This document shows positions 50,003 through 61,094 of a DNA stretch of 64,000 bases, in pieces (position 1 is the first letter of the stretch; each line of letters opens with the position of its first letter). Under the pieces are notes generated by a model that worked only from the letters and a program-made list of their open reading frames with translations, was not told the DNA's origin and ran no database searches. Location: NCBI GenBank assembly GCA_965230295.1, contig OZ246001.1, forward strand, positions 2,016,001 through 2,080,000, given 5' to 3'. This DNA comes from Marinicella sp. (GTDB lineage: Bacteria > Pseudomonadota > Gammaproteobacteria > Xanthomonadales > Marinicellaceae). The translations under genes and the position numbers were made by a program.

Positions 50003-51214
50003 TCATTTCCTGATCTCGGCGCTTTGTTGGTGATAAACCAAGCCTTCGGCCTCTGCCAGCTTGGCTGCAATGTTGGCCAACACCCCACGGCCTGTTTCAT
50101 TGATTTTTTGGGTTGACAGTACTTTTAAAAATTGATGTACGCTCAAGCCACCAGAAAACTTACCGGCACCAGCGGTGGGTAGGGTGTGGTTCGGACCGGC
50201 ACAATAGTCGCCAAAGGCCACCGCTGAGTTTTCACCGATGAATAACGAGCCATAATTGGTAAACAGTGCGGTTTTCATCGAAGTGTCACAGACCATCAAA
50301 TGTTCTGGGGCGTAGTCATTGATGAAGTCTAAGGCCTGTTGTTGATCATCTGCCAATAACAACACGATGTTGCCATGAGCGAGCAATTCTTTACCCTTGT
50401 CATGTTCGGCCAACAGGTCGTAAAGATTTTCTAACAGGCTGTCAGTTTCACTGACCACAATACTGATCGCATGGGCGTCATGCTCGGCTTGCGCCAGTGC
50501 GTCAAACATCAACCATTCAGGCTGCTTGATTTGGTTGGCGTAGATCAACAGTTCACTGGGCCCAGCCAAGGTATCTATTTGGGTGCGGTGTTGAACCTGT
50601 GCTTTGGCTTGATTGACAAAGGCATTACCCGGCCCAACAATCATATTCACTGGTGGGGTTTGGTCAAAGCCGTAGGACAGAGCGCCAATGGCCTGGGCGC
50701 CGCCAATATGGATGAATTGAGTGGCACCTGCCAAAGAAGCAGCGGCCAATAATGCAGGATCATCAGAAGGCGAGCAGGCCACCCGCACTGGGCAACCAGC
50801 CACTTGTGCTGGAGTTAACGTCATCAATGCGGTTGAAATCAATGGAAACTGGCCACCGGGTATGTAAGCACCGATGCGTTCGATTGGCTGATACACGAAA
50901 CCAAAATCACCCATTTCGTCACTGAACTGGTCATTTTTTAAATCTTTGATCTGAAATTGGCAGAATTTTTTGATGCGTCGGTGGGCGCTTTGGATGGCGT
51001 CTTTCAATGACTGGTCTATCGGGTACTCATCAAAAGGCAGCAGTTCAATGTATTGAACATCTTGTTGGTCGATTTTTTGACTGATGGCTTGAACCGCCTT
51101 ATCACCATGGTTTTTGATTTTGTCTAAGATCTTGGCCACCGTGTCTTCAATTTTGCTTTGGTTTTTGAAAGCAGGGCGTTGGTAGTCTAGGGTGTTGGTG
51201 TATTTAGCGTTCAT
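50003..51214 (-). CDS. hisD: Histidinol dehydrogenase
   Basis: GAYIPGG, GGAQAIGAL, IVGPGNAFV, AGPSE, QAEHD, YAPEHL, GDYCAGPNHTLPT. Confidence 0.96.
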   Translation of the reverse strand: MNAKYTNTLDYQRPAFKNQSKIEDTVAKILDKIKNHGDKAVQAISQKIDQQDVQYIELLPFDEYPIDQSLKDAIQSAHRRIKKFCQFQIKDLKNDQFSDEMGDFGFVYQPIERIGAYIPGGQFPLISTALMTLTPAQVAGCPVRVACSPSDDPALLAAASLAGATQFIHIGGAQAIGALSYGFDQTPPVNMIVGPGNAFVNQAKAQVQHRTQIDTLAGPSELLIYANQIKQPEWLMFDALAQAEHDAHAISIVVSETDSLLENLYDLLAEHDKGKELLAHGNIVLLLADDQQQALDFINDYAPEHLMVCDTSMKTALFTNYGSLFIGENSAVAFGDYCAGPNHTLPTAGAGKFSGGLSVHQFLKVLSTQKINETGRGVLANIAAKLAEAEGLVYHQQSAEIRK

Positions 51215-52439
51215 CGTTTCGACTCCGCAAATCATTGACAATTTCCTGGTAGCTGACCCCTTTGGATTTGGCCATCACCAGGGTAAAAAACAGCAGGTCT
51301 GCTGCTTCCCAACGCACATGGTTATGCTCGGTGGCTTCAATCAACTCATCACATTCTTCTTTCAGTTTTTCTATTTGCAAGGCTTCACTGGCAAACAGTT
51401 TCTGACTGAATGATTGGGTTTCTGTTGTAGCCATGCGTTGTTCAAACACTTCATCCAGGTAATCCAAAGAATAGTTCCTGGTTTGGCTGGCAAAACAAGA
51501 GTACCGATCAAAATGGCAAGCGTTGCGGTTCTGCTCAACCAAAAAAAGCAAGGTGTCACCGTCACAATCCACATCCACCTGGATCAGCTTTTGGGTGTTA
51601 CTGCTGGTCAAACCCTTGGTCCACAGTTCATTTCTGGAACGGGAAAAATAGGTGCCGGTGCGATTTTCCAATGCATGTTCTAGTGATTCAGCGGAAGAGT
51701 AAGCCATCATCAAGACTTTGTTGGTCTTTACATCTTGAACCACAGTTGGGATCAATGGCAGTTTGTCAAAATCCACAAGTGACATGAAAGCCTGGTTCAG
51801 TGACATATGCCCTGAGTAAATGGCCATGCCGATTTGAGAATTGGCTCCACGGGCATTGATCCATTGCAAATCTTCATAACTGGTGATGCCACCGGCAACT
51901 GTCACCGGAATCGGCGAGGCTTTGATCACTGCACTGATCCGTTGCTGGTCAATACCCTGCATCATGCCTTCTTTCTTGACCTGGGTGTACAGAAATTCGC
52001 CACAGTTCTGGGCCCAGTCAGCAATGATGTCGAGTACTTTGATGTCTTGGGTTTTCTTCCAGCCGTGGGTGGTGAGAAAATCGTCTTTGGCATCAATGGC
52101 AAAAATCAGCGATTGCCGTGGTAGCTTTTTGACCCAATCCTGACTGGCAGAAGTGCCCAGGATGATTTTGGTGGCGCCGGCTGCCAAATAATTCTTAGCC
52201 GTTTCCAAATCGCGGATGCCACCGCCCACCCGACAGGGACGTTTGCGCAGCAGCTGTTCGATCAGATCTTGATTTGAGCCATGACCCATGGCGGCATCCA
52301 AATCAATGATGGCCACTTCGCCATACATGGCAAATTCTTCCAGCAGTTCGAACACATCATCGCGCTCGATGATCTTTTTATCACCTTGCTGGAGTTGAAC
52401 GGCCTTGCCGCCCATGAGGTCTATTGATGGTATCAGCAT
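51204..52439 (-). CDS. hisA-hisIE: Fusion of HisA isomerase, HisI cyclohydrolase and HisE pyrophosphatase
   Basis: IPSIDLMGGKAVQL and VGGGIR (HisA); FSRSRNELWTKG, DCDGD, ACH...SCF (HisI); KLKEECDEL, WEAADLLF (HisE). Confidence 0.9.
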   Translation of the reverse strand: MLIPSIDLMGGKAVQLQQGDKKIIERDDVFELLEEFAMYGEVAIIDLDAAMGHGSNQDLIEQLLRKRPCRVGGGIRDLETAKNYLAAGATKIILGTSASQDWVKKLPRQSLIFAIDAKDDFLTTHGWKKTQDIKVLDIIADWAQNCGEFLYTQVKKEGMMQGIDQQRISAVIKASPIPVTVAGGITSYEDLQWINARGANSQIGMAIYSGHMSLNQAFMSLVDFDKLPLIPTVVQDVKTNKVLMMAYSSAESLEHALENRTGTYFSRSRNELWTKGLTSSNTQKLIQVDVDCDGDTLLFLVEQNRNACHFDRYSCFASQTRNYSLDYLDEVFEQRMATTETQSFSQKLFASEALQIEKLKEECDELIEATEHNHVRWEAADLLFFTLVMAKSKGVSYQEIVNDLRSRNDER

Positions 52440-52461
52440 ACTTTCTCCTTACCAGAGCCAT

Positions 52462-52520
52462 CGTCATTACCCGGCTTGACCGGGTAATCCATAGCGAAGC
52501 GGGTTCGAACGAAGTTCGAA
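52462..52520. repeat. CGTC-type REP-like palindrome plus GAA-triloop hairpin inside the his operon
   Basis: cgtcattacccggcttgaccgggtaatcca; ttcgaac-gaa-gttcgaa. Confidence 0.7.
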
Positions 52521-52560
52521 AATATCATTGTCATTCTTTGTTCAGGTTTCATATTCTGAG

Positions 52561-53355
52561 TTAATCCAAAGTGTTTCTGACTTTAATGTTGTTGTTGATT
52601 AGAAATTCTTTGATCTGCCCCACGGTGTATTCGCCACGGTGGAACAAACCTGCGGCCAAAACCGCATCAGCACCGGCATGAATCGCGTCTAAAAAGTCTT
52701 GTGGACCATTGGCGCCACCTGATGCAATCACTTGTACTGGAAAGTCAGCGCCGAATTGTGCCAGTAAATTGGTGTCAAATCCACTGCCAGTGCCATCTTT
52801 GTGCATGGCAGTGAGCAAAATCTCACCTGCACCGCGGTCAACGACCTCTTTGATCCAGCCGTGGTAGTCCACTTCGGCCCGCCGAGAACCGCCATGGGTG
52901 TAGATGGCCAACTCCCCATTGGCTTCATGGTTCACATCCACCGCCACCACGATACTTTGGGAGCCATATTGGGTAGAAATTTGATTGATCAGTTCGGGTT
53001 TTTCGACGGCCATGGTGTTTAGGGTCACTTTATCGGCACCGGCATGAAAGAACTTGTGCACGTCATCCAGGGTTTTGATACCACCACCCACAGCAAAGGG
53101 AATGGATAAATGGGTGGCCACTTGATAAACCATGTCGAGAGCCGATTGTTGACCGTCAACAGAAGCCTTGATGTCCAGGAAAATCAGTTCATCGGCACCT
53201 TGTTGTTCATACATTTTGGCCAACTCAACCGGATCACCCATGTCTAACAATTCTTTGAAATTGGTGCCTTTGACGACCCGTCCATAGGCCACATCCAGGC
53301 ATGGAATGATCCTTGCAGTGAGGTCAGAGTTTGAGTTATTGTCATTGACATACAT
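52561..53355 (-). CDS. hisF: Imidazole glycerol phosphate synthase cyclase subunit
   Basis: RIIPCLDV, GRVVKG, GADELIFLDI, GAGEILLT, DGTGSGFD, IASGGA. Confidence 0.97.
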   Translation of the reverse strand: MYVNDNNSNSDLTARIIPCLDVAYGRVVKGTNFKELLDMGDPVELAKMYEQQGADELIFLDIKASVDGQQSALDMVYQVATHLSIPFAVGGGIKTLDDVHKFFHAGADKVTLNTMAVEKPELINQISTQYGSQSIVVAVDVNHEANGELAIYTHGGSRRAEVDYHGWIKEVVDRGAGEILLTAMHKDGTGSGFDTNLLAQFGADFPVQVIASGGANGPQDFLDAIHAGADAVLAAGLFHRGEYTVGQIKEFLINNNIKVRNTLD

Positions 53356-53947
53356 GTTTGATCAGCTCCCTACCAAAAACACCGGATTTTTCCGGGTGAA
53401 ATTGAAATCCGTATAAATTGCCACGTTGCACCGAAGCACAAAACGCATCACCGTAATTAACTTTGGCGGTGGCGAATGGACATTCAGTGATGGCATAAGA
53501 ATTGACGAAATAAGCATACTGGTTTTTTAAGGTCAGTTTGTATGAATTCAGTTTGGCCCAGCCCACCATTGGTGTTTTGGGGTGCGGTAACCGGTGACAA
53601 CGGCCTGGAAATAACCCAAGGCCTTTGGCTTCAGGGTCTTCATCACTGCCCTCAAACAACACTTGCATGCCGACACATATACCAATCAGGCGTTTGCCAT
53701 TGCGGACCCATTCCAATAAAAATTCACGCCAACCATTTTGATCAATCTGATTCATCACGAAAGCAAAGCGCCCTTGGCCTGGCATCACCAAAACATCCAG
53801 CTCGGTGAGGTATTCTGCTTTGGGTTGTTTTAAGGTTTGTAACTCACAATCGGCCACTTCAATGGCGGTTTGCATACTCAGCAAGTTACCTGAGTTCAAA
53901 TCAATCACGCCCACACGGGTTTTGGGCTTGCTGAGGTCTTTGGTCAT
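53342..53947 (-). CDS. hisH: Imidazole glycerol phosphate synthase glutaminase subunit
   Basis: PGQG, GICVGMQ, FQFHPEKSG. Confidence 0.95.
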   Translation of the reverse strand: MTKDLSKPKTRVGVIDLNSGNLLSMQTAIEVADCELQTLKQPKAEYLTELDVLVMPGQGRFAFVMNQIDQNGWREFLLEWVRNGKRLIGICVGMQVLFEGSDEDPEAKGLGLFPGRCHRLPHPKTPMVGWAKLNSYKLTLKNQYAYFVNSYAITECPFATAKVNYGDAFCASVQRGNLYGFQFHPEKSGVFGRELIKHVCQ

Positions 53948-54516
53948 AACACCCCCTTGGTGGAACGCTCACCAGCAACCGGTTGTAAGGCTTCTTTCAT
54001 GGCATAGGCCAGTGCTTTAAAGGCACTTTCCACCAAGTGGTGGTTGTTGCGGAAATATTGGTTTTTCAAGTGCAGGCAGATTTTGCTGTTGATGCTCAAA
54101 GTGTAAAAAAAATGCTCCCACATTTCAGTGTTGATGCCACCGAGTTGAGGCTGTGAAAACGGCAGATCGATCACCGCATAGGGCCGGCCGCACAAGTCCA
54201 CCGCACACATCGTCAAAGCTTCATCCATGGGCAGCAGGCGTTGGCCATAACGTTGGTTGGGTTTGGCCGCTTGCCAAGCTTGGTACAGGGCATCGCCCAA
54301 GCAAATGGCCACATCTTCGATACCGTGGTGGTCATCAACTTCTAAATCTGCTGTGACTTGCAGGTCCATAAACCAACCGGCGTGTGACGCCAGTTGGTCC
54401 AGCATGTGATCAAAAAACGGCAAGCCGGTGTTGATGTTTTTCTTTGAAGGATCACCAGTGATGTCCAAGGACAATTCAATTTGGGTTTCTTTGGTGGCTC
54501 TGGATACCTGAATCAT
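53944..54516 (-). CDS. hisB: Imidazoleglycerol-phosphate dehydratase (monofunctional, no phosphatase domain)
   Basis: RATKETQI, FFDHML, DDHHGIED, PMDEAL, NNHHLVESAFKA, STKGVL. Confidence 0.95.
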   Translation of the reverse strand: MIQVSRATKETQIELSLDITGDPSKKNINTGLPFFDHMLDQLASHAGWFMDLQVTADLEVDDHHGIEDVAICLGDALYQAWQAAKPNQRYGQRLLPMDEALTMCAVDLCGRPYAVIDLPFSQPQLGGINTEMWEHFFYTLSINSKICLHLKNQYFRNNHHLVESAFKALAYAMKEALQPVAGERSTKGVL

Positions 54517-56150
54517 AATAAAGCCTCTAATTGGTTGATGTTTTCAAGGACCAGATCGGCCCCTGCCTGATATAAATTTTCTTTGGCGGCTGGGTCGGTG
54601 GCACCGATGCCAATACACACACAGCCGGCAGCGTTGCCTGCTTGCATGTCATCAACGGTGTCGCCACAAAACCAAATGCGCTTGGCCTGGCTGTCATCAA
54701 TGACTTGAAACAAACCTTCTGGATCGGGTTTTTGTTGTTCCACATCATCTGCGCTGATGATGTAAGAGGGTTGAATGTTCAGTTGATTGACGCCTTGTTC
54801 GGCTTCCATCCGTGGCCGTCCGGTCACAATGGCGGTGGGTCGTTTGGCTTTAAATACCTGTTGTTTGAGTGGATTCAACAGCAAGTCTTGCTCTTGTTCA
54901 ACCAAACCTGGGGTTTGTCCATCGCCCAAATAGAGAGTTTGGAAGGTATTGACCACCAGTTCATACGGTATGTCAAAGCCGCTTTGCTTAATCAATTCTG
55001 CAGCCAACACCCAATCGTTGTTGAAACCACCTTGGGCCCGGACTGTTTCAATGTCGGTCTGATTGACGCCTTGGCCTGTGAGCTCCTCGACGGTTTTGAT
55101 GATGCATTGATCATAACTCAAAGAAGTGTCTATCAATACCCCATCCATATCAAATGCCAACAACTCAGGTTTGAGTATCAATTTCAATGCTTGCATGAAA
55201 GTATCCATGTACTCAGGAATGGTGAGGCGTATGGCACGTGGCAAACCACCCAGTTCAGTTTTGATCTGGATGCCTTGTTTTTCCATGACCCGGGAAAACA
55301 ATTCTTTTTGTGCTGGGTTGGTTTCGAACAGCACAAAGTTGCCGCGACTGGGGCATACCCGTAATCCCGTTGATTCGAGCAGTTTGACCACCATGGTGCG
55401 ATTGGTCTCAATCGTTTGGCAGTATTCCTTGATTTCATCGCGGGCTTGCCAGGCGGCAGCGGCCAGTTGTAAATTGGCCCGTGAAACATTGAATGGCATG
55501 GCAATTTGCTTGAAACGTTCAATCAACTCAGGTGCACCGAATATGTAACCAATTCGAGCCCCTGCCAGGCCAAAGGCTTTGGAGAAGGTGCGCAAAGTGA
55601 CCAGATTGGGATAGGCGGCATAATCGATGGGCTCAACCTCATTAGCGAACTCTACATAAGCTTCATCCAGAAAAACCCAAGCACCTTTGCTCTCAGCTGT
55701 CTCGATCAGGTCAACCAAGACATCAGCGGCCAAGTATTCACCTGTGGGGTTGTTGGGCCGGGTCAAAATGACCCATTGATTGGCTTGGATATTCGCCTTT
55801 AAGACTTCGGTATCAATGGATAAATCATCGCATGCTGGAACGAAAGTGGTTTGGTTGTTCCAGACTTGTTGGTTGTGGGTGTACTGGCTGAAACAAGGTT
55901 CTGGTACCAACAGTGATTGGTCATTGAGCTTACAATTTTTATAAAGCAGCTCGATGCTTTCATCACCGCCATTGGTCAACATCACGGAACCACTGCTCAG
56001 ACCCATATCGGCTGCCATTTGATTTTCCAGTACGGCTCGATCTGGGTAACACCATAAATCGTCCACTTTCAATTGAAACCGTTTTAACCATTCGGGCTGT
56101 GAATCGGCCCGCTCGTTAAAGTCCAGCTTGAGTTTCACCTCGTTCATCAT
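54513..56150 (-). CDS. hisC: Histidinol-phosphate aminotransferase fused to a C-terminal HAD phosphatase
   Basis: LDFNE, PNNPTG, LDEAY, RTFSKAFGLAGARIGY (PLP lysine); then AFDMDGVLID, KPDPEG, GDTVDD (HAD motifs). Confidence 0.9.
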   Translation of the reverse strand: MMNEVKLKLDFNERADSQPEWLKRFQLKVDDLWCYPDRAVLENQMAADMGLSSGSVMLTNGGDESIELLYKNCKLNDQSLLVPEPCFSQYTHNQQVWNNQTTFVPACDDLSIDTEVLKANIQANQWVILTRPNNPTGEYLAADVLVDLIETAESKGAWVFLDEAYVEFANEVEPIDYAAYPNLVTLRTFSKAFGLAGARIGYIFGAPELIERFKQIAMPFNVSRANLQLAAAAWQARDEIKEYCQTIETNRTMVVKLLESTGLRVCPSRGNFVLFETNPAQKELFSRVMEKQGIQIKTELGGLPRAIRLTIPEYMDTFMQALKLILKPELLAFDMDGVLIDTSLSYDQCIIKTVEELTGQGVNQTDIETVRAQGGFNNDWVLAAELIKQSGFDIPYELVVNTFQTLYLGDGQTPGLVEQEQDLLLNPLKQQVFKAKRPTAIVTGRPRMEAEQGVNQLNIQPSYIISADDVEQQKPDPEGLFQVIDDSQAKRIWFCGDTVDDMQAGNAAGCVCIGIGATDPAAKENLYQAGADLVLENINQLEALL

Positions 56151-56999
56151 TCACACCACTTTTCTGATCGGTAATTCCAGGATGTCAGTGGCACCGGCTT
56201 GCTTCAGTTTGGGAATCAAATCTTTGGCTGCACCTTTGGGGATGGCGGCACGTACTGAGTAGGCTTCGGTGTTGAACAATTTACTGACAGTTGGTGATCG
56301 CATGGCAGGTAGTAATGAAACAATTTTTTCAATGTCATTACTTTGGCAATTCATTTCCAGTAAAACGCGTTGTCGGGCATTCATCACGCCGTTGATCAAC
56401 AACAGCATGTCATCAATCACGGCTCTCTTGTCTGGGTCTTCTAAGGCCGCTTTGTTGGCAAAAAACTGGGTGGCACTTTCATACACCACATCACATATTT
56501 TCAAGCGGTTGGCTTTGATGGTGCTGCCGGTGCTGGTGTTATCAATCACCATATCGGCATCTTCAGGTGGGAACACTTCAGTGGCACCATAAGATCGAAT
56601 CAACTGGGCATCGAAGCCTTTGTCTTCGAGGAATTTTTTTGCCAGATTCATGTATTCTGTGGCCACAATGATCTTGCGCTGTTTCAAAGCTTCATAATCC
56701 CAGTCCTCCGGGATACAGGCCACGATTTCGACTGGGTTGAACCCCAAGGGTTTGATGATTTCTACGTTGGCCCCTTGTTCAGCGATCCAGTCCATGCCTG
56801 CAAACCCGATGTCATGTTGGCCCAACTCCACCAATGATGGGATGTTCTGTCCTTTGAGCAATTTGATTTCAAAACGGTTGTCAGAACAGCTGGGACGGTA
56901 ATTGCGCTCATCGCCCATGATGTTGATGCCAATGTCTGACAACAGCTTGAGGATCTCAATTTGTAATTTCCCCTTGGGGATGGCCATTTTAATTTTCAT
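56151..56999 (-). CDS. hisG: ATP phosphoribosyltransferase, long form
   Basis: MAIPKGKL, DIGFAGMD, GATE, STGSTIKANRL; C-terminal regulatory domain LPAMRSPTV...GATDIL. Confidence 0.96.
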   Translation of the reverse strand: MKIKMAIPKGKLQIEILKLLSDIGINIMGDERNYRPSCSDNRFEIKLLKGQNIPSLVELGQHDIGFAGMDWIAEQGANVEIIKPLGFNPVEIVACIPEDWDYEALKQRKIIVATEYMNLAKKFLEDKGFDAQLIRSYGATEVFPPEDADMVIDNTSTGSTIKANRLKICDVVYESATQFFANKAALEDPDKRAVIDDMLLLINGVMNARQRVLLEMNCQSNDIEKIVSLLPAMRSPTVSKLFNTEAYSVRAAIPKGAAKDLIPKLKQAGATDILELPIRKVV

Positions 57000-57048: not shown

Positions 57049-57078
57049 AAAAAAAACCCCGTCTTTTCGACGGGGCTT
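57049..57078 (-). terminator. Attenuator terminator 2 (hisG-proximal)
   Basis: Minus strand aagccccgtc-gaaaa-gacgggg followed by T8. Confidence 0.9.
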
Positions 57079-57097
57079 CGTGAATAAAATGCGAATT

Positions 57098-57163
57098 TCA
57101 GCAGCGCCGTCTCAATATGTCGGTCAAATGATGATGATCCATTATTGGTTGATTGTTTTTCAT
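57098..57163 (-). CDS. hisL: His leader peptide 2 (MKNNQPIMDHHHLTDILRRRC)
   Basis: Three consecutive CAT codons; 3' part gacggcgct can pair with the 5' arm of terminator 2. Confidence 0.8.
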   Translation of the reverse strand: MKNNQPIMDHHHLTDILRRRC

Positions 57164-57185
57164 GTTAATTCAGTAATTTCAGTCC

Positions 57186-57219
57186 AAAAAAAAGCCCCGT
57201 TTGATGTAACGGGGCTTTT
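57186..57219 (-). terminator. Attenuator terminator 1 (promoter-proximal)
   Basis: Minus strand aaaagccccgtt-acatca-aacggggc followed by T8. Confidence 0.9.
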
Positions 57220-57244
57220 ATAAGAATTCTTTTTCAAATTGGCA

Positions 57245-57304
57245 CTAAGCCACCCCGTTGTCAGTTAACGCATGGTGATGGGTATGTGCAAATCTTGTGT
57301 TCAT
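57245..57304 (-). CDS. hisL: His leader peptide 1 (MNTRFAHTHHHALTDNGVA), probably leaderless
   Basis: Four His codons (CAT ACC CAT CAC CAT); 3' part aacggggtggct can pair with the 5' arm of terminator 1. Confidence 0.82.
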   Translation of the reverse strand: MNTRFAHTHHHALTDNGVA

Positions 57305-57311
57305 GGTTCGC

Positions 57312-57340
57312 ATGTTAGAGAGGTTTGTTGGGTTTGTCAA
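57312..57340 (-). promoter_or_regulatory. Sigma70 promoter of the his operon
   Basis: TTGACA (57340-57335), 17 nt spacer, TAACAT (57317-57312). Confidence 0.8.
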
Positions 57341-57542: not shown

Positions 57543-60500
57543 ATGTCATATTTTTTCCATTATCTGAGACAGCATTTGATGCTGATCGGACTTGTTTTGT
57601 CTACAACTGCTTCCTCTTCCAAACAGTTCAGCCAAATGAATCATGCGCCTATTAACGAAGCGCCTCATGCTGTGAGTGAAAATTCATGGAAGGTTTTGAA
57701 TCAAACCATTCACGATATGAAGTTATTGCCTTCACCTGCAGGCATCGGCTCTGAGGATGCCGGATTTTTCGGTGAAAGCGTTGCTGTTGAAGGAGACCGG
57801 GCTTTGATTGGGGCGCCTGGTGTGCTTGGGCACGGAGTGGTTTTTGTGTTTGATTGGATCGGTGACTCTTGGGTGAAAACCGATGTGTTGGAGCCGGTTG
57901 ATGGGGAAGATGGAGATCAATTTGGTGGCTCTGTGAGTCTTTCCGGTGGGCGTGTTTTGGTCGGCGCCTATCAAGATGATGATTTCGGCAATGCATCAGG
58001 TGCAGCCTATGTATTTGAATTCAATCAAGGGGTGTGGACGCAAACCAATAAATTGTTACCCCAAGATCCAGCAGCCAATGACCATTTTGGCAGGGCCGTG
58101 AGTTTGTTTGCAGATCGTGCTTTGATTGGTTCATCACAGGATGACGACAACAACACCAGTTCTGGGTCTGTCTATGTATTCGATTTGGTCAATGGACAGT
58201 GGAGTGAAACATTCAAGATAAAGCCAGATGATGGGGCTTTCGGTGATGTTTTTGGTTATTCAGTCAGTTTATCCACCGATCGTGCTTTGATTGGTGCCTA
58301 CGGTGATGACGATGAATTCAATCTCTCCGGTTCTGCCTATATTTTTGACTACTTCAATGGCCAATGGTCTCAGACACAGAAATTAACTGCTGCTGATTCT
58401 CAAACCTGGGCAAATTTTGGTTATGCAGTCAGTTTGGATGGAGATCGGGCTTTGGTAGGCGCCTACAATGATGATTCAGGGTTCATCGATTCAGGTTCGG
58501 CTTATGTGTTTGAGTTAGCAGCAGGTGTTTGGGGACAAACAGAAAAACTAACTGCATCTGATCAGGCAGAAAGTGATCGCTTTGGACGTACGGTGATGTT
58601 GTCAGGAGATCGCGCATTGATTGGCAGCCGTGATGACGATGACAATGGCTTGAATTCAGGATCGGCCTATTTATTTGAACTCAATGGAGGTGTTTGGTCC
58701 GAGACCATTAAATTGACCCCCAATGATGGTGCCTTAAGCGATTGGTTTGGTGCAGCTGTAGGGTTGTCGGGTGACCGGGTCATCATCGGTGCCAATGGAG
58801 ACAATGATTTTTTTCCACAGTCTGGGTCAGCCTATTATTTCGCTTTGAATGAGGGAACTTGGTCACAACAACAAAAATTAACCGCGGGTGAAGGCGCTGC
58901 TGCAGATCAATTCGGGTTTTCGGTCAGCATTTCCGGCAACCGCGCTCTGGTTGGCGCCATTTATGACAAGGACAACGGCAACAATTCCGGATCAGCCTAT
59001 ATATTTGAATACAATGACAGCGACTGGATACAAACGGCCAAATTGCTTGCTGCTGATGGCGAACCTTTTGATGTATTTGGGTATTCGGTCAGCTTGTCTG
59101 GAGATCGGGCTTTGGTGGGCGCATTTGGTGAGGATGATCAAGCTGCACAATCAGGGGCCGCTTATATCTTCGAGTTGGATTCAGGGGTGTGGTCGCAGAC
59201 TGCCAAACTAAAGGCAGACAATGCCAGTGCGGATGACTTTTTTGGTTATTCGGTGAGCTTGTCGGGCAGTCGGGCATTGGTGGGCGCCTATCTGGCGGAT
59301 GGCAAAGGCATCACCGATTCAGGTGCCGCTTATATGTATGATCTAGTTGGTGGTATATGGATCCAAACCACAGAATTAAATACAGACGATGCAGAGGTCA
59401 ATGACCGGCTTGGTGTGGCAGTGAGCCTGGATGGAGATCGGGCATTGGTGGGGGCATTTCTTGAGGATGACAATGGCAACAATGCGGGTTCTGCTTATGT
59501 GTTTGATAACAACATGGGAACGTGGAATCAGACGCAGAAATTGTTGGCCAATGATGGGTCGGGCTTTGACCATTTTGGTCGTGCTGTTAGCTTATCAGGC
59601 AACCGGGCTTTGGTTGGTGCTTACTTGGACGACGAGAATGGCACCAATTCAGGTTCTGCCTATGTGTTTGATTTTGATGTTGGTAGTTGGTCTCAGTCGA
59701 GCAAGTTGATGGCTTCTGATGGTGTTTTGGGCGATGAATTTGGTCGTGCCGTAAGCCTTGAAGGTGATCGTGCGCTGGTGGGTGCTTATTTGGATGATGA
59801 TCAGGGCATAGAATCAGGGTCAGCTTATGTATTTGAATTATCTGATGGATCATGGTCTCAACTCAATAAACTGACTGCTGCCGATGGCCAAGCCAATGAC
59901 CAATATGGTTTTTCAGTCAGTCTTGAAGGTGATGCGGCATTGATCGGTGCGTTCTTAACAGATGATCACGGCCTCGACTCAGGATCAGCATACGTGGTGG
60001 ATGTGGTCCCAAAATATACAGTTTCGGTTGATGTATCGGGTTTGGCATCAGGTAACTCGGTGGCGTTCAGGAACAATGGGGTTGATCCTTTATTGGTGTC
60101 GACCAATGGCTTGACCACATTTGTCACACCCATACGTGATGGCAATGCATATGATGTGACTGTCCACCCGCCTCAACCCTCCAATCCAAACCAAATATGT
60201 GTAGTCACAGACCCTATGGGTAGCATCGAATCGGCCGATGTGGTGTTGGATGTTGTTTGTACCACTTTGACATATTTCATTGGTGTGACGGTAACAGGCC
60301 TCGATGACAACAACACAATCGAGTTAACCACCAACATGCAAAGCCTGGTTTTTAACACCAACACCATGATGAATTTTCCATTACCACTGGATGATGGCAC
60401 CGACTATTCAGTGTTGCTCACGGCTCAACCAGTTGATCCAAATCAAACCTGCGTTGTGACCGGTGGCAACAGTGGAAGTAATGATGGTTCAGGCGCCCTC

Positions 60501-61094
60501 AATGGAATGGATGCGATGGTTGCTGTTGATTGCACCACCAATCAATATGCCATTGGCATCAATTTATCGGGATTGGCAGCAACCAATTCTGTCAGTTTCA
60601 CCAATGGAGATGACACCCTGATGATGTTTGCAGATGGGTTGTCGGTGCTTTCGACCTTGGATGACGGGTCACTCTATGATGTAAACATCGCCACTCAACC
60701 ACAATCGCCCAATCAAACCTGTTCATTTCTATCAGCCAATTCTGGCACTTTGGCAGGGCTGGGAGTGCAAATAGAAGTGAGTTGTATCACCAACAGTTAT
60801 TTCATTGGAGGAATTGTTGATGGTTTGCTTTCTGGTAATTATTTGGTGTTGCAAAACAATGGTGGTGATGACAAAGTCATCACTGTAGACGGCCCGTACA
60901 TTTTTGATAGCCCCTTGCTTGATGAGCAAACCTACAGTGTCACGATTGATCTGCAACCGAACAATCCGATTCAACCGTGTTTTGTCCAAAACGGGCAATC
61001 AACTCTGGCAGGTGCCGACGTGACCAATGTCAACATAGAATGTTTGTTTGGCGATGATTTGATTTTTCGCGACTCCTTTGGGAACTTCGATTAA
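57543..61094 (+). CDS. Large secreted FG-GAP repeat protein (14 repeats) with four Ig-like repeats and C-terminal DLIFRDSF tag
   Basis: 14 units of FGxsVslxGDRALvGA...SGSAYvF; four units of YxIGxxVxGL...YxVxxxxQPxxPnQxC. Confidence 0.9.
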   Translation: MSYFFHYLRQHLMLIGLVLSTTASSSKQFSQMNHAPINEAPHAVSENSWKVLNQTIHDMKLLPSPAGIGSEDAGFFGESVAVEGDRALIGAPGVLGHGVVFVFDWIGDSWVKTDVLEPVDGEDGDQFGGSVSLSGGRVLVGAYQDDDFGNASGAAYVFEFNQGVWTQTNKLLPQDPAANDHFGRAVSLFADRALIGSSQDDDNNTSSGSVYVFDLVNGQWSETFKIKPDDGAFGDVFGYSVSLSTDRALIGAYGDDDEFNLSGSAYIFDYFNGQWSQTQKLTAADSQTWANFGYAVSLDGDRALVGAYNDDSGFIDSGSAYVFELAAGVWGQTEKLTASDQAESDRFGRTVMLSGDRALIGSRDDDDNGLNSGSAYLFELNGGVWSETIKLTPNDGALSDWFGAAVGLSGDRVIIGANGDNDFFPQSGSAYYFALNEGTWSQQQKLTAGEGAAADQFGFSVSISGNRALVGAIYDKDNGNNSGSAYIFEYNDSDWIQTAKLLAADGEPFDVFGYSVSLSGDRALVGAFGEDDQAAQSGAAYIFELDSGVWSQTAKLKADNASADDFFGYSVSLSGSRALVGAYLADGKGITDSGAAYMYDLVGGIWIQTTELNTDDAEVNDRLGVAVSLDGDRALVGAFLEDDNGNNAGSAYVFDNNMGTWNQTQKLLANDGSGFDHFGRAVSLSGNRALVGAYLDDENGTNSGSAYVFDFDVGSWSQSSKLMASDGVLGDEFGRAVSLEGDRALVGAYLDDDQGIESGSAYVFELSDGSWSQLNKLTAADGQANDQYGFSVSLEGDAALIGAFLTDDHGLDSGSAYVVDVVPKYTVSVDVSGLASGNSVAFRNNGVDPLLVSTNGLTTFVTPIRDGNAYDVTVHPPQPSNPNQICVVTDPMGSIESADVVLDVVCTTLTYFIGVTVTGLDDNNTIELTTNMQSLVFNTNTMMNFPLPLDDGTDYSVLLTAQPVDPNQTCVVTGGNSGSNDGSGALNGMDAMVAVDCTTNQYAIGINLSGLAATNSVSFTNGDDTLMMFADGLSVLSTLDDGSLYDVNIATQPQSPNQTCSFLSANSGTLAGLGVQIEVSCITNSYFIGGIVDGLLSGNYLVLQNNGGDDKVITVDGPYIFDSPLLDEQTYSVTIDLQPNNPIQPCFVQNGQSTLAGADVTNVNIECLFGDDLIFRDSFGNFD

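What the first reader, a model, noticed from the sequence alone, without database searches (positions are those of the whole stretch)
57049..57340. Two complete histidine attenuators in tandem, the first on a leaderless mRNA
Seen on the minus strand, in order: TTGACA-N17-TAACAT promoter; leader 1 MNTRFAHTHHHALTDNGVA (57304-57245, ATG 7 nt after the -10, no SD); terminator 1; leader 2 MKNNQPIMDHHHLTDILRRRC (57163-57098); terminator 2; hisG. Each leader ends in a segment able to pair with the 5' arm (agccccgt) of its own terminator, as an antiterminator would. The leaders share HHH(A)LTD and the terminators share AGCCCCGT...ACGGGG, suggesting duplication of one unit. Established: the enterobacterial his operon uses one attenuator with seven His codons. 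Inference: two weak sensors (4 and 3 His codons) in series would multiply read-through, giving lower leakiness or a steeper response, like tandem riboswitches or T-boxes. I know of no description of this for ribosome-mediated his attenuation.
Basis: partly seen in the sequence, partly recalled or inferred. Interest (0 to 1): 0.88.

Follow-up and report, generated by a model that had tools for sequence, protein, structure and literature searches.

The report
Two histidine attenuators in series
Upstream of the histidine operon of this marine bacterium lie two complete histidine-sensing leader-peptide switches one after the other, the first starting right at the 5' end of the transcript, an arrangement kept in many relatives and apparently not described before.

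Summary
On the minus strand: TTGACA-N17-TAACAT, then 7 nt, leader ORF 1 (4 His of 19), terminator 1, leader ORF 2 (3 His of 21), terminator 2, hisG. The genome is a Marinicella. Of 49 distinct related hisG loci (Marinicella, Kangiella and allied MAGs), 33 carry both units and 16 carry one. On the hisG tree, single-unit loci nest inside tandem clades, and one shows a clean deletion between the two terminators. Antiterminator pairing covaries with the terminator arm in both units. The promoter, followed by a 6-7 nt gap and the ATG, is conserved in 34 of 46 loci by strict scan, and there is no Shine-Dalgarno. This supports a leaderless first leader. No conserved promoter lies between the units. 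I read it as two ribosome-mediated His attenuators in series on one transcript. Read-through is probably multiplied; that step is inferred. No RNA data were available. The second leader lacks an SD, and its anti-antiterminator is weak in this genome. My literature searches found no tandem His attenuator. Verdict: real, a new variant of a known kind, moderately high interest.

The parts
57335..57340 (-). -35 hexamer TTGACA of the his promoter
   Evidence: Nearly invariant in the 24-sequence alignment A1. Part of a >=10/12 promoter match in 35 of 46 unit-1 loci.
57312..57317 (-). -10 hexamer TAACAT, 17 nt after the -35 and 7 nt before the leader-1 ATG
   Evidence: T1, A2, A5 and T6 are invariant or nearly so in A1. 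The -10 ends 6-7 nt before the ATG in 34 of 46 loci. The Kangiella-type loci show TTTAAT-N7-ATG by eye.
57245..57304 (-). Leader ORF 1 (19 codons plus TAG), MNTRFAHTHHHALTDNGVA; inferred leaderless start
   Evidence: Homologous His-run ORFs occur in 46 loci. No SD: median duplex energy with the anti-SD is 0.1 kcal/mol.
57272..57286 (-). Regulatory codons of leader 1 (CAT ACC CAT CAC CAT); segment b
   Evidence: Codon positions 1 and 2 are invariant and position 3 varies. Pairs with segment c (helix 4, 88.7% of cells paired; -9.3 kcal/mol).
57253..57259 (-). Segment c of unit 1 (AACGGGG): pairs either with the His codons or with the 5' arm of terminator 1 (antiterminator)
   Evidence: 96.4% paired in 24 sequences; 90.9% paired in 46 sequences, 12 compensatory cells, 0 of 500 shuffles as high.
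57186..57219 (-). Terminator 1: AAAAGCCCCGTT / loop ACATCA / AACGGGGCTTTT, T8 tail
   Evidence: 96.4% paired. -18.3 kcal/mol.
57098..57163 (-). Leader ORF 2 (21 codons plus TGA), MKNNQPIMDHHHLTDILRRRC; internal, no SD, A-rich surroundings
   Evidence: His-run ORF at this position in 33 loci. SD energy 0.4 kcal/mol and A fraction 0.53.
57128..57136 (-). Regulatory codons of leader 2 (CAT CAT CAT)
   Evidence: The C and A of each codon are invariant and the wobble position varies in A2.
57103..57111 (-). Segment c of unit 2 (GACGGCGCT): antiterminator strand against the 5' arm of terminator 2
   Evidence: -12.0 kcal/mol, p=0.000 against 200 shuffles; 93% paired, 6 compensatory cells, 0 of 500 shuffles. 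The nucleotides are conserved even where the stop codon lies before them (L005, L008, L013, L024).
57049..57079 (-). Terminator 2: GAAGCCCCGTC / loop GAAAA / GACGGGGTTTT, T8 tail
   Evidence: -18.4 kcal/mol.
56151..56999 (-). hisG (long form, 282 aa), first gene of the controlled operon
   Evidence: Pfam HisG plus HisG_C. The operon continues with hisC-HAD, hisB, hisH, hisF, hisA-hisIE and hisD down to 50003.
57141..57168 (-). Promoter-like match TTAACA-N16-AATAAT inside leader 2 (rival element, judged to be chance)
   Evidence: 10 of 12. Not present in the nearest relative L002. Only 9 of 32 tandem loci have any >=9/12 site between the units, at scattered positions.

Best explanation
The his operon of this Marinicella (hisG, hisC-HAD, hisB, hisH, hisF, hisA-hisIE, hisD) is preceded by two ribosome-mediated, histidine-responsive transcription attenuators in series on one transcript from one sigma-70-type promoter. 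Transcription starts at or within a base or two of the A of the leader-1 ATG, so leader 1 is translated from a leaderless 5' end. In each unit, a ribosome that reaches the end of the short ORF covers segment c, the intrinsic terminator forms, and transcription stops. A ribosome stalled on the His codons for lack of charged tRNA-His leaves segment c free to pair with the 5' arm of the terminator (antiterminator), and RNA polymerase reads on. A polymerase that passes terminator 1 meets the same test at unit 2 before it reaches hisG. Read-through into hisG would then be about the product of the two read-through probabilities, giving a lower basal level and a steeper response than one unit. Shown here: the anatomy, its conservation, covariation of the alternative pairings, the promoter geometry, and the lack of a conserved internal promoter. 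Inferred: the 5' end, translation of both ORFs, the response to histidine, and the multiplicative outcome.
For: (1) Anatomy is as described. (2) Conservation: among 49 distinct loci encoding a hisG 46-100% identical to this one, 33 have both units. Thirty were found by automatic scan. Three were judged by eye: L022 has a broken T-run, L077 has a 16-nt loop, and L057 has its first unit cut by the contig end. These 33 include Kangiella, which NCBI places in another order. (3) Coding signature: the C and A of every His codon are invariant while the wobble base varies, in both units. Peptide N-termini vary freely, yet the His run stays in frame. (4) Unit-1 antiterminator: 6 bp are 90.9% paired in 46 sequences, with 12 compensatory cells (A-U to G-C in 11). 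None of 500 shuffles reach this, and slid controls give 28-72%. The same terminator column also covaries with the 3' arm. (5) Unit-2 antiterminator: 93% paired in 18 Marinicella sequences, 6 compensatory cells, 0 of 500 shuffles. (6) Without alignment, the best duplex between the post-His segment and the terminator arm beats 200 dinucleotide shuffles at p<=0.05 in 34 of 46 unit-1 and 24 of 33 unit-2 sequences, with 32 and 23 different sequence combinations. (7) With a ribosome footprint masked on the His run, the terminator arm is sequestered by 5 bp or more in 46 of 46 and 32 of 33 units. With the footprint on the stop codon, this happens in only 11 of 46 and 12 of 33. (8) Leaderless start: a >=10/12 promoter match ends 6-7 nt before the leader-1 ATG in 34 of 46 loci, and L053 has GTG at +7. 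The sequence upstream of the -35 is not conserved, and there is no SD. The genome shows mild enrichment of ATG 6-8 nt after promoter-like sites (8, 11 and 10 against a mean of 5.1), including TetR-, MarR- and ArsR-like genes. (9) Single transcript: no promoter-like site is conserved between the units, and the spacer from T-run 1 to the leader-2 ATG varies from 14 to 80 nt. (10) Unit 1 alone suffices as a his attenuator, because Marinicella loci with one unit keep unit 1 directly before hisG. (11) Principle: synthetic sRNA-controlled attenuators placed in tandem multiply their effects and are modelled by squaring the single-unit function (10.1101/018358, passages).
Against: No RNA evidence of any kind is available: no RNA run holds the stretch. 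The 5' end, the two 3' ends and translation of the ORFs are therefore untested. Neither leader has a Shine-Dalgarno. Leader 2 is internal, so it cannot be leaderless, and it has none either: 0 of 33 reach -4 kcal/mol or lower, against 16 of 33 for hisG in the same loci. How ribosomes load there is unexplained. In this genome the His-codon:segment-c pairing of unit 2 is weak (-3.3 kcal/mol; median of 33 is -10.3), so an untranslated unit 2 might read through by default. In equilibrium folds of the RNA truncated before the 3' arm, the antiterminator forms even without a ribosome in 27 of 46 and 28 of 33 units. With a ribosome at the stop codon it still forms in 11 of 46 and 12 of 33. Discrimination must therefore be kinetic. 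Sixteen of 49 loci have one unit, and parsimony needs 8 changes on the tree (at least 5 forced by well-supported branches), so the second unit is dispensable. The window holds a 10/12 promoter-like match inside leader 2. Rfam His_leader scores 25.1 bits against a cut-off of 49 on unit 1 and gives no hit on unit 2. Covariation counts are in cells, not independent events; most compensatory cells come from one or two clades.
Confidence: 0.75

Rival explanations
1. The two units are not in series. A second promoter between terminator 1 and terminator 2 drives most hisG transcription, so unit 1 gates only a minor transcript or none.
For: TTAACA-N16-AATAAT (10 of 12) lies at 57168-57141 on the minus strand. 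A TTGAC-like word often follows the T-run of terminator 1 in Marinicella.
Against: The match is absent from the nearest relative L002. Only 9 of 32 tandem loci have any >=9/12 site between the units, at positions from -7 to +90 relative to the leader-2 ATG. The promoter of unit 1, by contrast, is fixed in 34 of 46. A start 7 nt after AATAAT would lie downstream of both ATGs of leader 2. That would leave the conserved His ORF untranslated, at odds with its coding signature. The region gave 4 promoter-like matches against 2.8 +/- 1.7 in shuffles.
Confidence: 0.07
2. The second unit is a functionally neutral duplicate or relic. Regulation is done by one unit, and the tandem state persists only through slow decay.
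For: There have been repeated losses: 16 of 49 loci are single, with 8 changes by parsimony. A clean deletion between the terminators is seen in L012 against its sister L010. Single-unit loci do not compensate with more His codons (median 4 against 5). L022 has a degraded T-run on terminator 2.
Against: Both units keep an in-frame His run, a terminator of about -18 kcal/mol (medians) and a covarying antiterminator. This holds across lineages whose hisG is only about 63% identical. The flanking spacers have diverged beyond alignment. That pattern indicates purifying selection on both units.
Confidence: 0.1
3. Unit 1 is chiefly a gene of its own. The roughly 118-nt leaderless transcript ending at terminator 1 acts in trans as a small RNA or micropeptide, as described for the attenuator-derived rnTrpL and peTrpL of Sinorhizobium, and only unit 2 is the his attenuator proper.
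For: Unit 1 has a strong promoter and a strong terminator, giving a discrete product of 115-147 nt in 45 of 46 loci. The peptide C-terminus is conserved. There is precedent for trans-acting attenuator RNAs and leader peptides (PMC6614838 and PMC7298713, seen as abstracts in the listing).
Against: In single-unit Marinicella loci it is unit 1 that sits directly before hisG. The conserved peptide C-terminus (NGV) coincides with segment c, whose conservation is explained by pairing. A trans role would add to, not replace, the cis role.
Confidence: 0.05

Closest known systems
Enterobacterial his operon attenuator (hisL leader; Rfam His_leader RF00514)
   Same: It has a short leader ORF with a run of His codons. 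It has mutually exclusive pairings: His codons with segment 2, segment 2 with the terminator 5' arm, and the terminator itself. An intrinsic terminator lies before hisG. Control is by ribosome position.
   Different: The enterobacterial operon has one unit with seven consecutive His codons and an SD-led leader (recalled textbook knowledge). Here there are two units with 3-4 His codons each, no SD, and a first ORF starting at the transcript's 5' end. Sequence and structure score below the Rfam cut-off (25.1 against 49 bits).
Tandem attenuators of the Salmonella mgtCBR leader (Lee and Groisman 2012, PMC3641672; passages read)
   Same: Two short ORFs in one leader RNA each govern an alternative RNA structure, and the effects combine.
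   Different: The mgtCBR ORFs sense different signals (ATP and proline). The paper contrasts that leader with the B. clausii metE leader, which carries two intrinsic terminators, so the paper does not present the mgtCBR leader as having two such sites. It also states that normally a single attenuator controls biosynthetic genes. Here both units read the same amino acid, and each has its own canonical terminator.
Tandem riboswitches and double or triple T-boxes
   Same: Two complete sensor-plus-terminator units for the same ligand lie in series before one operon. They are proposed to give a sharper or tighter response. Double His T-boxes before a His transporter operon in Enterococcus and tandem glycine riboswitches are mentioned in PMC9413887 and PMC3766115 (passages).
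   Different: Those systems sense the ligand or uncharged tRNA directly through RNA. Here the sensor is a translating ribosome on a leader ORF.
Leaderless sensory short ORFs of Actinobacteria: polycysteine ORFs of mycobacteria (10.1101/834739, abstract) and the leader peptide of C. glutamicum ilvBNC (PMC11857589, passages)
   Same: The amino-acid-sensing leader ORF begins at the 5' end of the mRNA without an SD.
   Different: Those occur in Actinobacteria, where leaderless mRNAs are common. The mycobacterial case controls translation by RBS sequestration, and both are single units. Here the host is a gammaproteobacterium, the output is transcription termination, and the unit is followed by a second one.
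Synthetic tandem pT181-type sRNA attenuators (10.1101/018358, passages)
   Same: Identical terminator-based attenuators in series multiply their effects, and the combined function is modelled as the square of the single one.
   Different: They are engineered, controlled by antisense RNA, and not by ribosomes.

Membership tests
Ribosome-mediated (leader-peptide) transcription attenuator | Short ORF in the 5' leader enriched in codons of the end-product amino acid | tested here: met
   Leader 1 has 4 His of 19 and leader 2 has 3 His of 21. In-frame His runs occur in 46 unit-1 and 33 unit-2 sequences, with median totals of 4.5 and 5 His.
Ribosome-mediated (leader-peptide) transcription attenuator | Intrinsic terminator between the leader ORF and the first structural gene | tested here: met
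   Both hairpins are about -18 kcal/mol with T8 tails. They are 96% paired across relatives.
Ribosome-mediated (leader-peptide) transcription attenuator | Antiterminator: a segment at the 3' end of the ORF pairs with the 5' arm of the terminator | tested here: met
   Unit 1. Unit 2. Alignment-free test p<=0.05 in 34 of 46 and 24 of 33.
Ribosome-mediated (leader-peptide) transcription attenuator | Anti-antiterminator: the regulatory codons pair with the antiterminator segment, so that untranslated RNA terminates | tested here: inconclusive
   Unit 1: -9.3 kcal/mol in the window, median -10.7, 88.7% paired, but no covariation. Unit 2: only -3.3 kcal/mol in the window, though -14 to -18 in the four Kangiella rows that the output printed (L064, L065, L068, L072).
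Ribosome-mediated (leader-peptide) transcription attenuator | The leader ORF is translated, and read-through responds to charged tRNA | not testable with these tools
   No RNA or ribosome data are available. The only indirect support is the codon-position conservation pattern.
Rfam His_leader (RF00514) | Score at or above the family's gathering cut-off (49 bits) | tested here: not met
   25.1 bits (E 0.17) on unit 1 and no His_leader hit on unit 2. It works like a His leader but is not a member of this sequence family.
Leaderless mRNA | Transcript 5' end at, or within a few bases of, the start codon | not testable with these tools
   Only inferred: the -10 ends 6-7 nt before the ATG in 34 of 46 loci, and the sequence upstream of the -35 is unconserved. 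No 5'-end data exist.
Leaderless mRNA | No Shine-Dalgarno before the start codon | tested here: met
Tandem same-signal cis-regulators (as tandem riboswitches or T-boxes) | Two complete sensor-plus-expression-platform units | tested here: met
   Each unit has its own ORF, antiterminator and terminator.
Tandem same-signal cis-regulators (as tandem riboswitches or T-boxes) | Both units lie on one transcript, with no promoter between them | tested here: inconclusive
   No conserved promoter-like site was found (9 of 32 loci with any site, scattered). A consensus scan cannot exclude a weak or non-sigma-70 promoter.

The most novel reading that the evidence does not exclude
The two stages are not redundant copies but a two-step logic gate with different default states. 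Stage 1 is leaderless, so a 70S ribosome can load as soon as the 5' AUG emerges. It has a solid anti-antiterminator, so RNA that is not translated terminates. In Marinicella, stage 2 lacks that hairpin and any SD, so it terminates only if a ribosome actively translates through segment c. Together they would let the operon tell true histidine shortage (a stall in both ORFs) from a general loss of translation. They would also square the response. This would be the first natural same-signal tandem of ribosome-mediated attenuators, old enough to be shared by Marinicellaceae and Kangiellaceae, and repeatedly collapsed by recombination between its own terminators.
Probability: 0.2. Interest if true: 0.75.

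Novelty: new variant of a known kind. Interest (0 to 1): 0.62.

Why it matters
Leader-peptide attenuation is a textbook mechanism, and it is normally presented as one sensor per operon. The one paper on 'tandem attenuators' that I could read calls its own case singular, and that case concerns two different signals (PMC3641672). Here nature has put two sensors of the same amino acid in series and kept them through the divergence of two bacterial families. That makes a design principle testable in a natural ribosome-based system. The principle is multiplication of read-through for tighter off-states and steeper switching. So far it is known from tandem riboswitches, T-boxes and synthetic RNA circuits. 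Close relatives that have lost one unit by a clean deletion (L012 against L010) serve as natural controls. The conserved promoter-ATG geometry also adds a leaderless leader peptide in a gammaproteobacterium. This suggests that direct 70S loading at the 5' end can replace an SD for coupling the first ribosome to RNA polymerase.

Tried and rejected
Rfam scan of the region: only sub-threshold leader hits. The rimP-leader and sRNA hits are terminator look-alikes and were discarded.

Rfam His_leader over 151 genomes of the class: 0 over the cut-off, including the window's own genome. This gave no information on tandem arrangements elsewhere.

RNA evidence: no RNA holder was listed for the stretch. 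Read laying was not used, because the only holder is a DNA run.

Supplementary files of papers were not requested. The supplements of PMC9413887 (attenuator alignments) and PMC2965389 could bear on whether tandem His leaders were ever listed.

Alignment A4 of all 33 unit-2 sequences put segment c of Marinicella and Kangiella three columns out of register. I did not count pairs on it. I used the Marinicella-only alignment A2 and the alignment-free test instead.

RNAalifold on A1 and A2 returns only the terminators, plus a spurious 4-bp helix over the -10/ATG, as expected for minimum-energy consensus folding.

Outer helix a:d of unit 1 (AGATT.GCAC with GTGC.AATTT): 49-90% paired with one covarying pair. 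This is too weak to claim.

Duplication origin of the two units: considered and left open. The order His codons, then G-rich c, then C-rich e, then G-rich f is forced by function, so similarity does not prove common descent.

Survey of other gammaproteobacterial families. Of 97 HisG match rows I examined 50: the 30 best-scoring loci plus 20 that I picked for open frames of 250 aa or more. None of the 50 has a His-run short ORF followed by a terminator within about 1.1-1.5 kb upstream. The other 47 rows were not examined. Well-known families with His attenuators may simply not be in the sample. The six hisG loci of other families of the same order (L025-L030; hisG about 27% identical) also show none.

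Genome-wide scan for other short ORF plus terminator units: no further His unit and no other tandem.

Compensation by more His codons in single-unit loci: not seen.

Literature searches found no tandem His attenuator. Vitreschak et al. 2004 (FEMS Microbiol Lett, attenuation in proteobacteria) is not in the library. I only recall its existence and could not check it.
Full report
**Observation**

- TTGACA at 57340-57335, then 17 nt, then TAACAT at 57317-57312, then 7 nt.
- Leader ORF 1 from ATG 57304 to TAG 57247-57245 (MNTRFAHTHHHALTDNGVA).
- A hairpin AAAAGCCCCGTT/ACATCA/AACGGGGCTTTT at 57219-57190, running into eight T's (57193-57186).
- Leader ORF 2 at 57163-57098 (MKNNQPIMDHHHLTDILRRRC).
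- A hairpin GAAGCCCCGTC/GAAAA/GACGGGGTTTT at 57079-57053, with eight T's to 57049.
- hisG, with its ATG at 56999.

The nearest gene upstream (57543-61094) is on the other strand and points away. Terminator 1 therefore cannot be the end of an upstream gene.

The consensus scan lists the promoter (10 of 12) and terminator 2. It misses terminator 1 only because four T's are absorbed into the stem. The fold of the whole leader (-68.8 kcal/mol, z -3.4) shows both hairpins.

Downstream lies a complete his operon: hisG (long form), a hisC-HAD fusion, hisB, hisH, hisF, a hisA-hisI-hisE fusion and hisD.

**Relatives**

The window lies in a 4.0-Mb single-contig genome. Record titles of near-identical loci name the genus Marinicella (lineage).
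- A hisG 72-93% identical occurs in 22 of 23 other genomes of the genus and in one genome of the same family. Sixteen genomes of other families of the order have only a hisG about 24-30% identical.
- A scan of one genome per species found 47 loci. These include Kangiella, Aliikangiella and MAGs labelled Alcanivoracaceae or Lysobacterales.
- After removing duplicates there are 49 distinct upstream regions.

An automatic scan for a His-run short ORF followed by a hairpin and T-run finds two units in 30 of these, one unit in 15 and none in 4. By eye, three of those four are tandem and the fourth has one unit:
- L022: the T-run of terminator 2 is broken.
- L057: the contig ends inside terminator 1.
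- L071: one unit.

The total is 33 tandem and 16 single.

**History**

I built a maximum-likelihood tree of 47 HisG proteins. L024 and L076 were dropped because their gene is cut by a contig end. The tree needs 8 changes of state by parsimony, of which at least 5 are forced by well-supported branches.

Single-unit loci sit inside tandem clades: L012 beside L010, L009/L011 beside L008, and L015/L016 beside L014. In L012 the sequence after the single terminator is homologous to the sequence after terminator 2 of L010. The material between the two terminators has evidently been deleted, as recombination between the similar 3' arms and T-runs would do.

The simplest reading is that the tandem state is old. 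It is shared by Marinicella and Kangiella, which NCBI places in different orders. It has been lost several times. Horizontal transfer of the operon with its leader between these lineages is not excluded. The single Marinicella loci keep unit 1, so unit 1 is a sufficient his attenuator.

**Are both ORFs coding?**

In alignments of 24 unit-1 and 18 unit-2 sequences, the invariant columns in the His run are the C and A of each codon. The third position varies between T and C. The N-terminal parts of the peptides vary in length and sequence, yet the run stays in frame with an ATG in every case.

In unit 2 the nucleotides GACGG(C/T)GC are conserved whether the stop codon lies after them (…RRRC) or inside them (L005, L008, L013, L024). 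That stretch is therefore conserved as RNA, not as peptide. The same holds for the NGV end of leader 1, which is segment c.

**Alternative pairings**

I call the His codons b, the G-rich segment at the ORF end c, and the terminator arms e and f.

Unit 1:
- In the 46-sequence alignment A3, the 6-bp c:e helix is paired in 90.9% of cells. It has 12 compensatory cells (A-U to G-C in 11 sequences, G-C to A-U in one). No shuffle of 500 reaches the observed covariation, and slid controls give 28-72%.
- The terminator is 96.4% paired. The same e column (T or C) covaries with f. One column thus covaries with two partners, which is what mutually exclusive helices predict.
- In the 24 Marinicella-type sequences, c:e is 96.4% paired and b:c is 88.7% paired without covariation.

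Unit 2:
- In the 18-sequence alignment A2, the 8-bp c:e helix (interrupted by one mismatch) is 93% paired. It has 6 compensatory cells and 0 of 500 shuffles as high.
- The 33-sequence alignment A4 was out of register and was not used.

Alignment-free test: the best duplex between the post-His segment and the terminator arm beats 200 dinucleotide shuffles at p<=0.05 in 34 of 46 unit-1 and 24 of 33 unit-2 sequences. The complementary sequences differ between clades, for example GACGGCGCT/AGCCCCGTC here, GAGCGACGG/CCGTTGCTC in Kangiella, and TCAACAG/CTGTTGA in L014. These counts are in sequences, not independent events. Much of the covariation stems from a few clade-level changes.

**A simple ribosome model**

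I folded each unit up to the terminator loop with a 31-nt footprint masked.

| Footprint position | Unit 1: terminator 5' arm sequestered by >=5 bp | Unit 2 |
|---|---|---|
| Middle His codon | 46 of 46 | 32 of 33 |
| Stop codon | 11 of 46 | 12 of 33 |
| None | 27 of 46 | 28 of 33 |

Equilibrium folding alone therefore does not give termination by default. As in classical attenuators, the order of folding during transcription must matter.

The b:c duplex is about -9 to -11 kcal/mol for unit 1 (38 of 46 at or below -8). For unit 2 in this window and the five other rows of its clade that the output printed (L002-L006) it is between -3.3 and -7.5 kcal/mol, and only -3.3 here. In the four Kangiella rows printed (L064, L065, L068, L072) it is -14 to -18. 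Unit 2 of this genome may thus lack an effective anti-antiterminator.

**Leaderless start**

- A strict scan finds a >=10/12 promoter match in 35 of 46 unit-1 loci. In 34 of them the -10 ends 6 or 7 nt before the leader ATG. In L053 a GTG stands at +7.
- One locus is cut by the contig end. The remaining ten (Kangiella type) show TTGAC(T/A/C)-N17-TTTAAT-N7-ATG or similar by eye.
- Upstream of the -35 nothing is conserved.
- The in-frame ATG three codons upstream, which overlaps the -10, is confined to Marinicella. The +7 ATG is universal.
- There is no SD.
- A purine 7-8 nt after the -10, preceded by a pyrimidine, is the usual start point for sigma-70 RNA polymerase (established knowledge, recalled).
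- The genome also shows mild enrichment of ATG 6-8 nt after promoter-like sites (8, 11 and 10 against a mean of 5.1 per trinucleotide). These include genes that look like TetR, MarR and ArsR regulators. Such regulators are the classic leaderless genes of gammaproteobacteria (recalled).

The leaderless reading is therefore well supported by geometry but not proven.

**One transcript or two?**

The window has TTAACA-N16-AATAAT inside leader 2. It is absent from the closest relative. Only 9 of 32 tandem loci have any >=9/12 site between the units, at scattered positions. The spacer between T-run 1 and the leader-2 ATG varies from 14 to 80 nt.

How ribosomes start on leader 2 is open. No SD is present (0 of 33 at or below -4 kcal/mol, against 16 of 33 for hisG). 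The surroundings are A-rich (median 49% A), and there is a weak GAGA in Kangiella.

**Mechanism**

Each unit has the parts of a ribosome-mediated attenuator. A polymerase must pass both to reach hisG. If the two decisions are independent, read-through multiplies. This gives a tighter off-state and a larger, steeper induction.

That last step is inference. It is supported only by analogy: tandem synthetic sRNA attenuators multiply and are modelled by squaring (10.1101/018358, passages), and tandem riboswitches and T-boxes are thought to behave likewise (mentions).

**Comparison with the known**

- It works like the enterobacterial his attenuator, but it is not a member of Rfam His_leader (25.1 against 49 bits).
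- The mgtCBR leader of Salmonella has 'tandem attenuators', but these respond to two different signals. The paper contrasts that leader with the metE leader, which does carry two intrinsic terminators. The authors call their case singular and state that normally one attenuator controls biosynthetic genes (PMC3641672, passages).
- Leaderless sensory ORFs are known in Actinobacteria (10.1101/834739, abstract; PMC11857589, passages).
- My full-text searches found no tandem His attenuator and nothing on attenuators in Kangiella. Comparative surveys I could read mention none.
- The 2004 survey of attenuators in proteobacteria by Vitreschak and colleagues is not in the library and could not be checked.
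- In 50 hisG loci of other gammaproteobacterial families, and in 6 of the same order, no His unit was found at all.

**Verdict**

The finding is real and well conserved. The best reading is two same-signal leader-peptide attenuators in series, the first on a leaderless transcript. It is a new variant of a known kind. It is moderately surprising to a specialist, and directly testable because natural one-unit relatives exist. Confidence in the anatomical and mechanistic reading is about 0.75. The multiplicative consequence is plausible but untested.

Noticed in passing
window 50003-56150 (- strand): The his operon has unusual fusions. One is a 545-aa aminotransferase (hisC-like) plus HAD phosphatase domain. 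Another is a 411-aa protein with His_biosynth (hisA-like), PRA-CH and PRA-PH domains (hisA-hisI-hisE). hisD comes last instead of second.
   Followed up: partly
window 57543-61094 (+ strand): The divergent neighbour is a 1183-aa protein. It is built of many repeats of a motif of about 50 residues containing GSAYVF/GAY…DD, followed by a different C-terminal repeat region. No family search was done.
   Followed up: no
G000 C1, about 1184463 (- strand), outside the window: A short ORF, MNLIANINLINVVVVILVIIGPRVW, is followed by a strong terminator. It lies about 170 nt before an ORF whose N-terminus looks like a branched-chain amino-acid aminotransferase (judged by eye, not tested). It is a likely single Ile/Val/Leu attenuator.
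   Followed up: partly
G000 C1, about 2327521 (+ strand), outside the window: A short ORF ending …NAVVVRRRRIQDIGVLW (four Arg in a row) is followed by a terminator. It lies before an ORF that looks like a carbamoyltransferase (judged by eye, not tested). It is a possible arginine-sensing leader peptide.
   Followed up: no
G000, several places: Six genes begin with ATG 6-7 nt after a TTGAC-N16-18-TAnnnT promoter-like site, with no room for an SD. Their N-termini resemble TetR-, MarR- or ArsR-type regulators. They are candidate leaderless mRNAs in this gammaproteobacterium.
   Followed up: no
L012 against L010; L009/L011 against L008: Single-unit relatives look like clean deletions between the two terminators. 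The similar 3' arms plus T-runs act as direct repeats. The tandem leader carries the means of its own collapse.
   Followed up: partly
L029 (hisG locus of another family of the same order), upstream of hisG: The ORF directly upstream of hisG contains …GAPYREIHDRTGVSVTTIGRVARFLQQG…. By eye this recalls TrpR/YerC-type repressors (a HisR-like regulator?). No His leader is present there.
   Followed up: no
window 57305-57311 and alignment A1 columns 39-45: The bases right after the -10 (GCGAA-C) are nearly invariant in Marinicella. This G+C-rich discriminator may bear on start-site choice or on stringent control.
   Followed up: no
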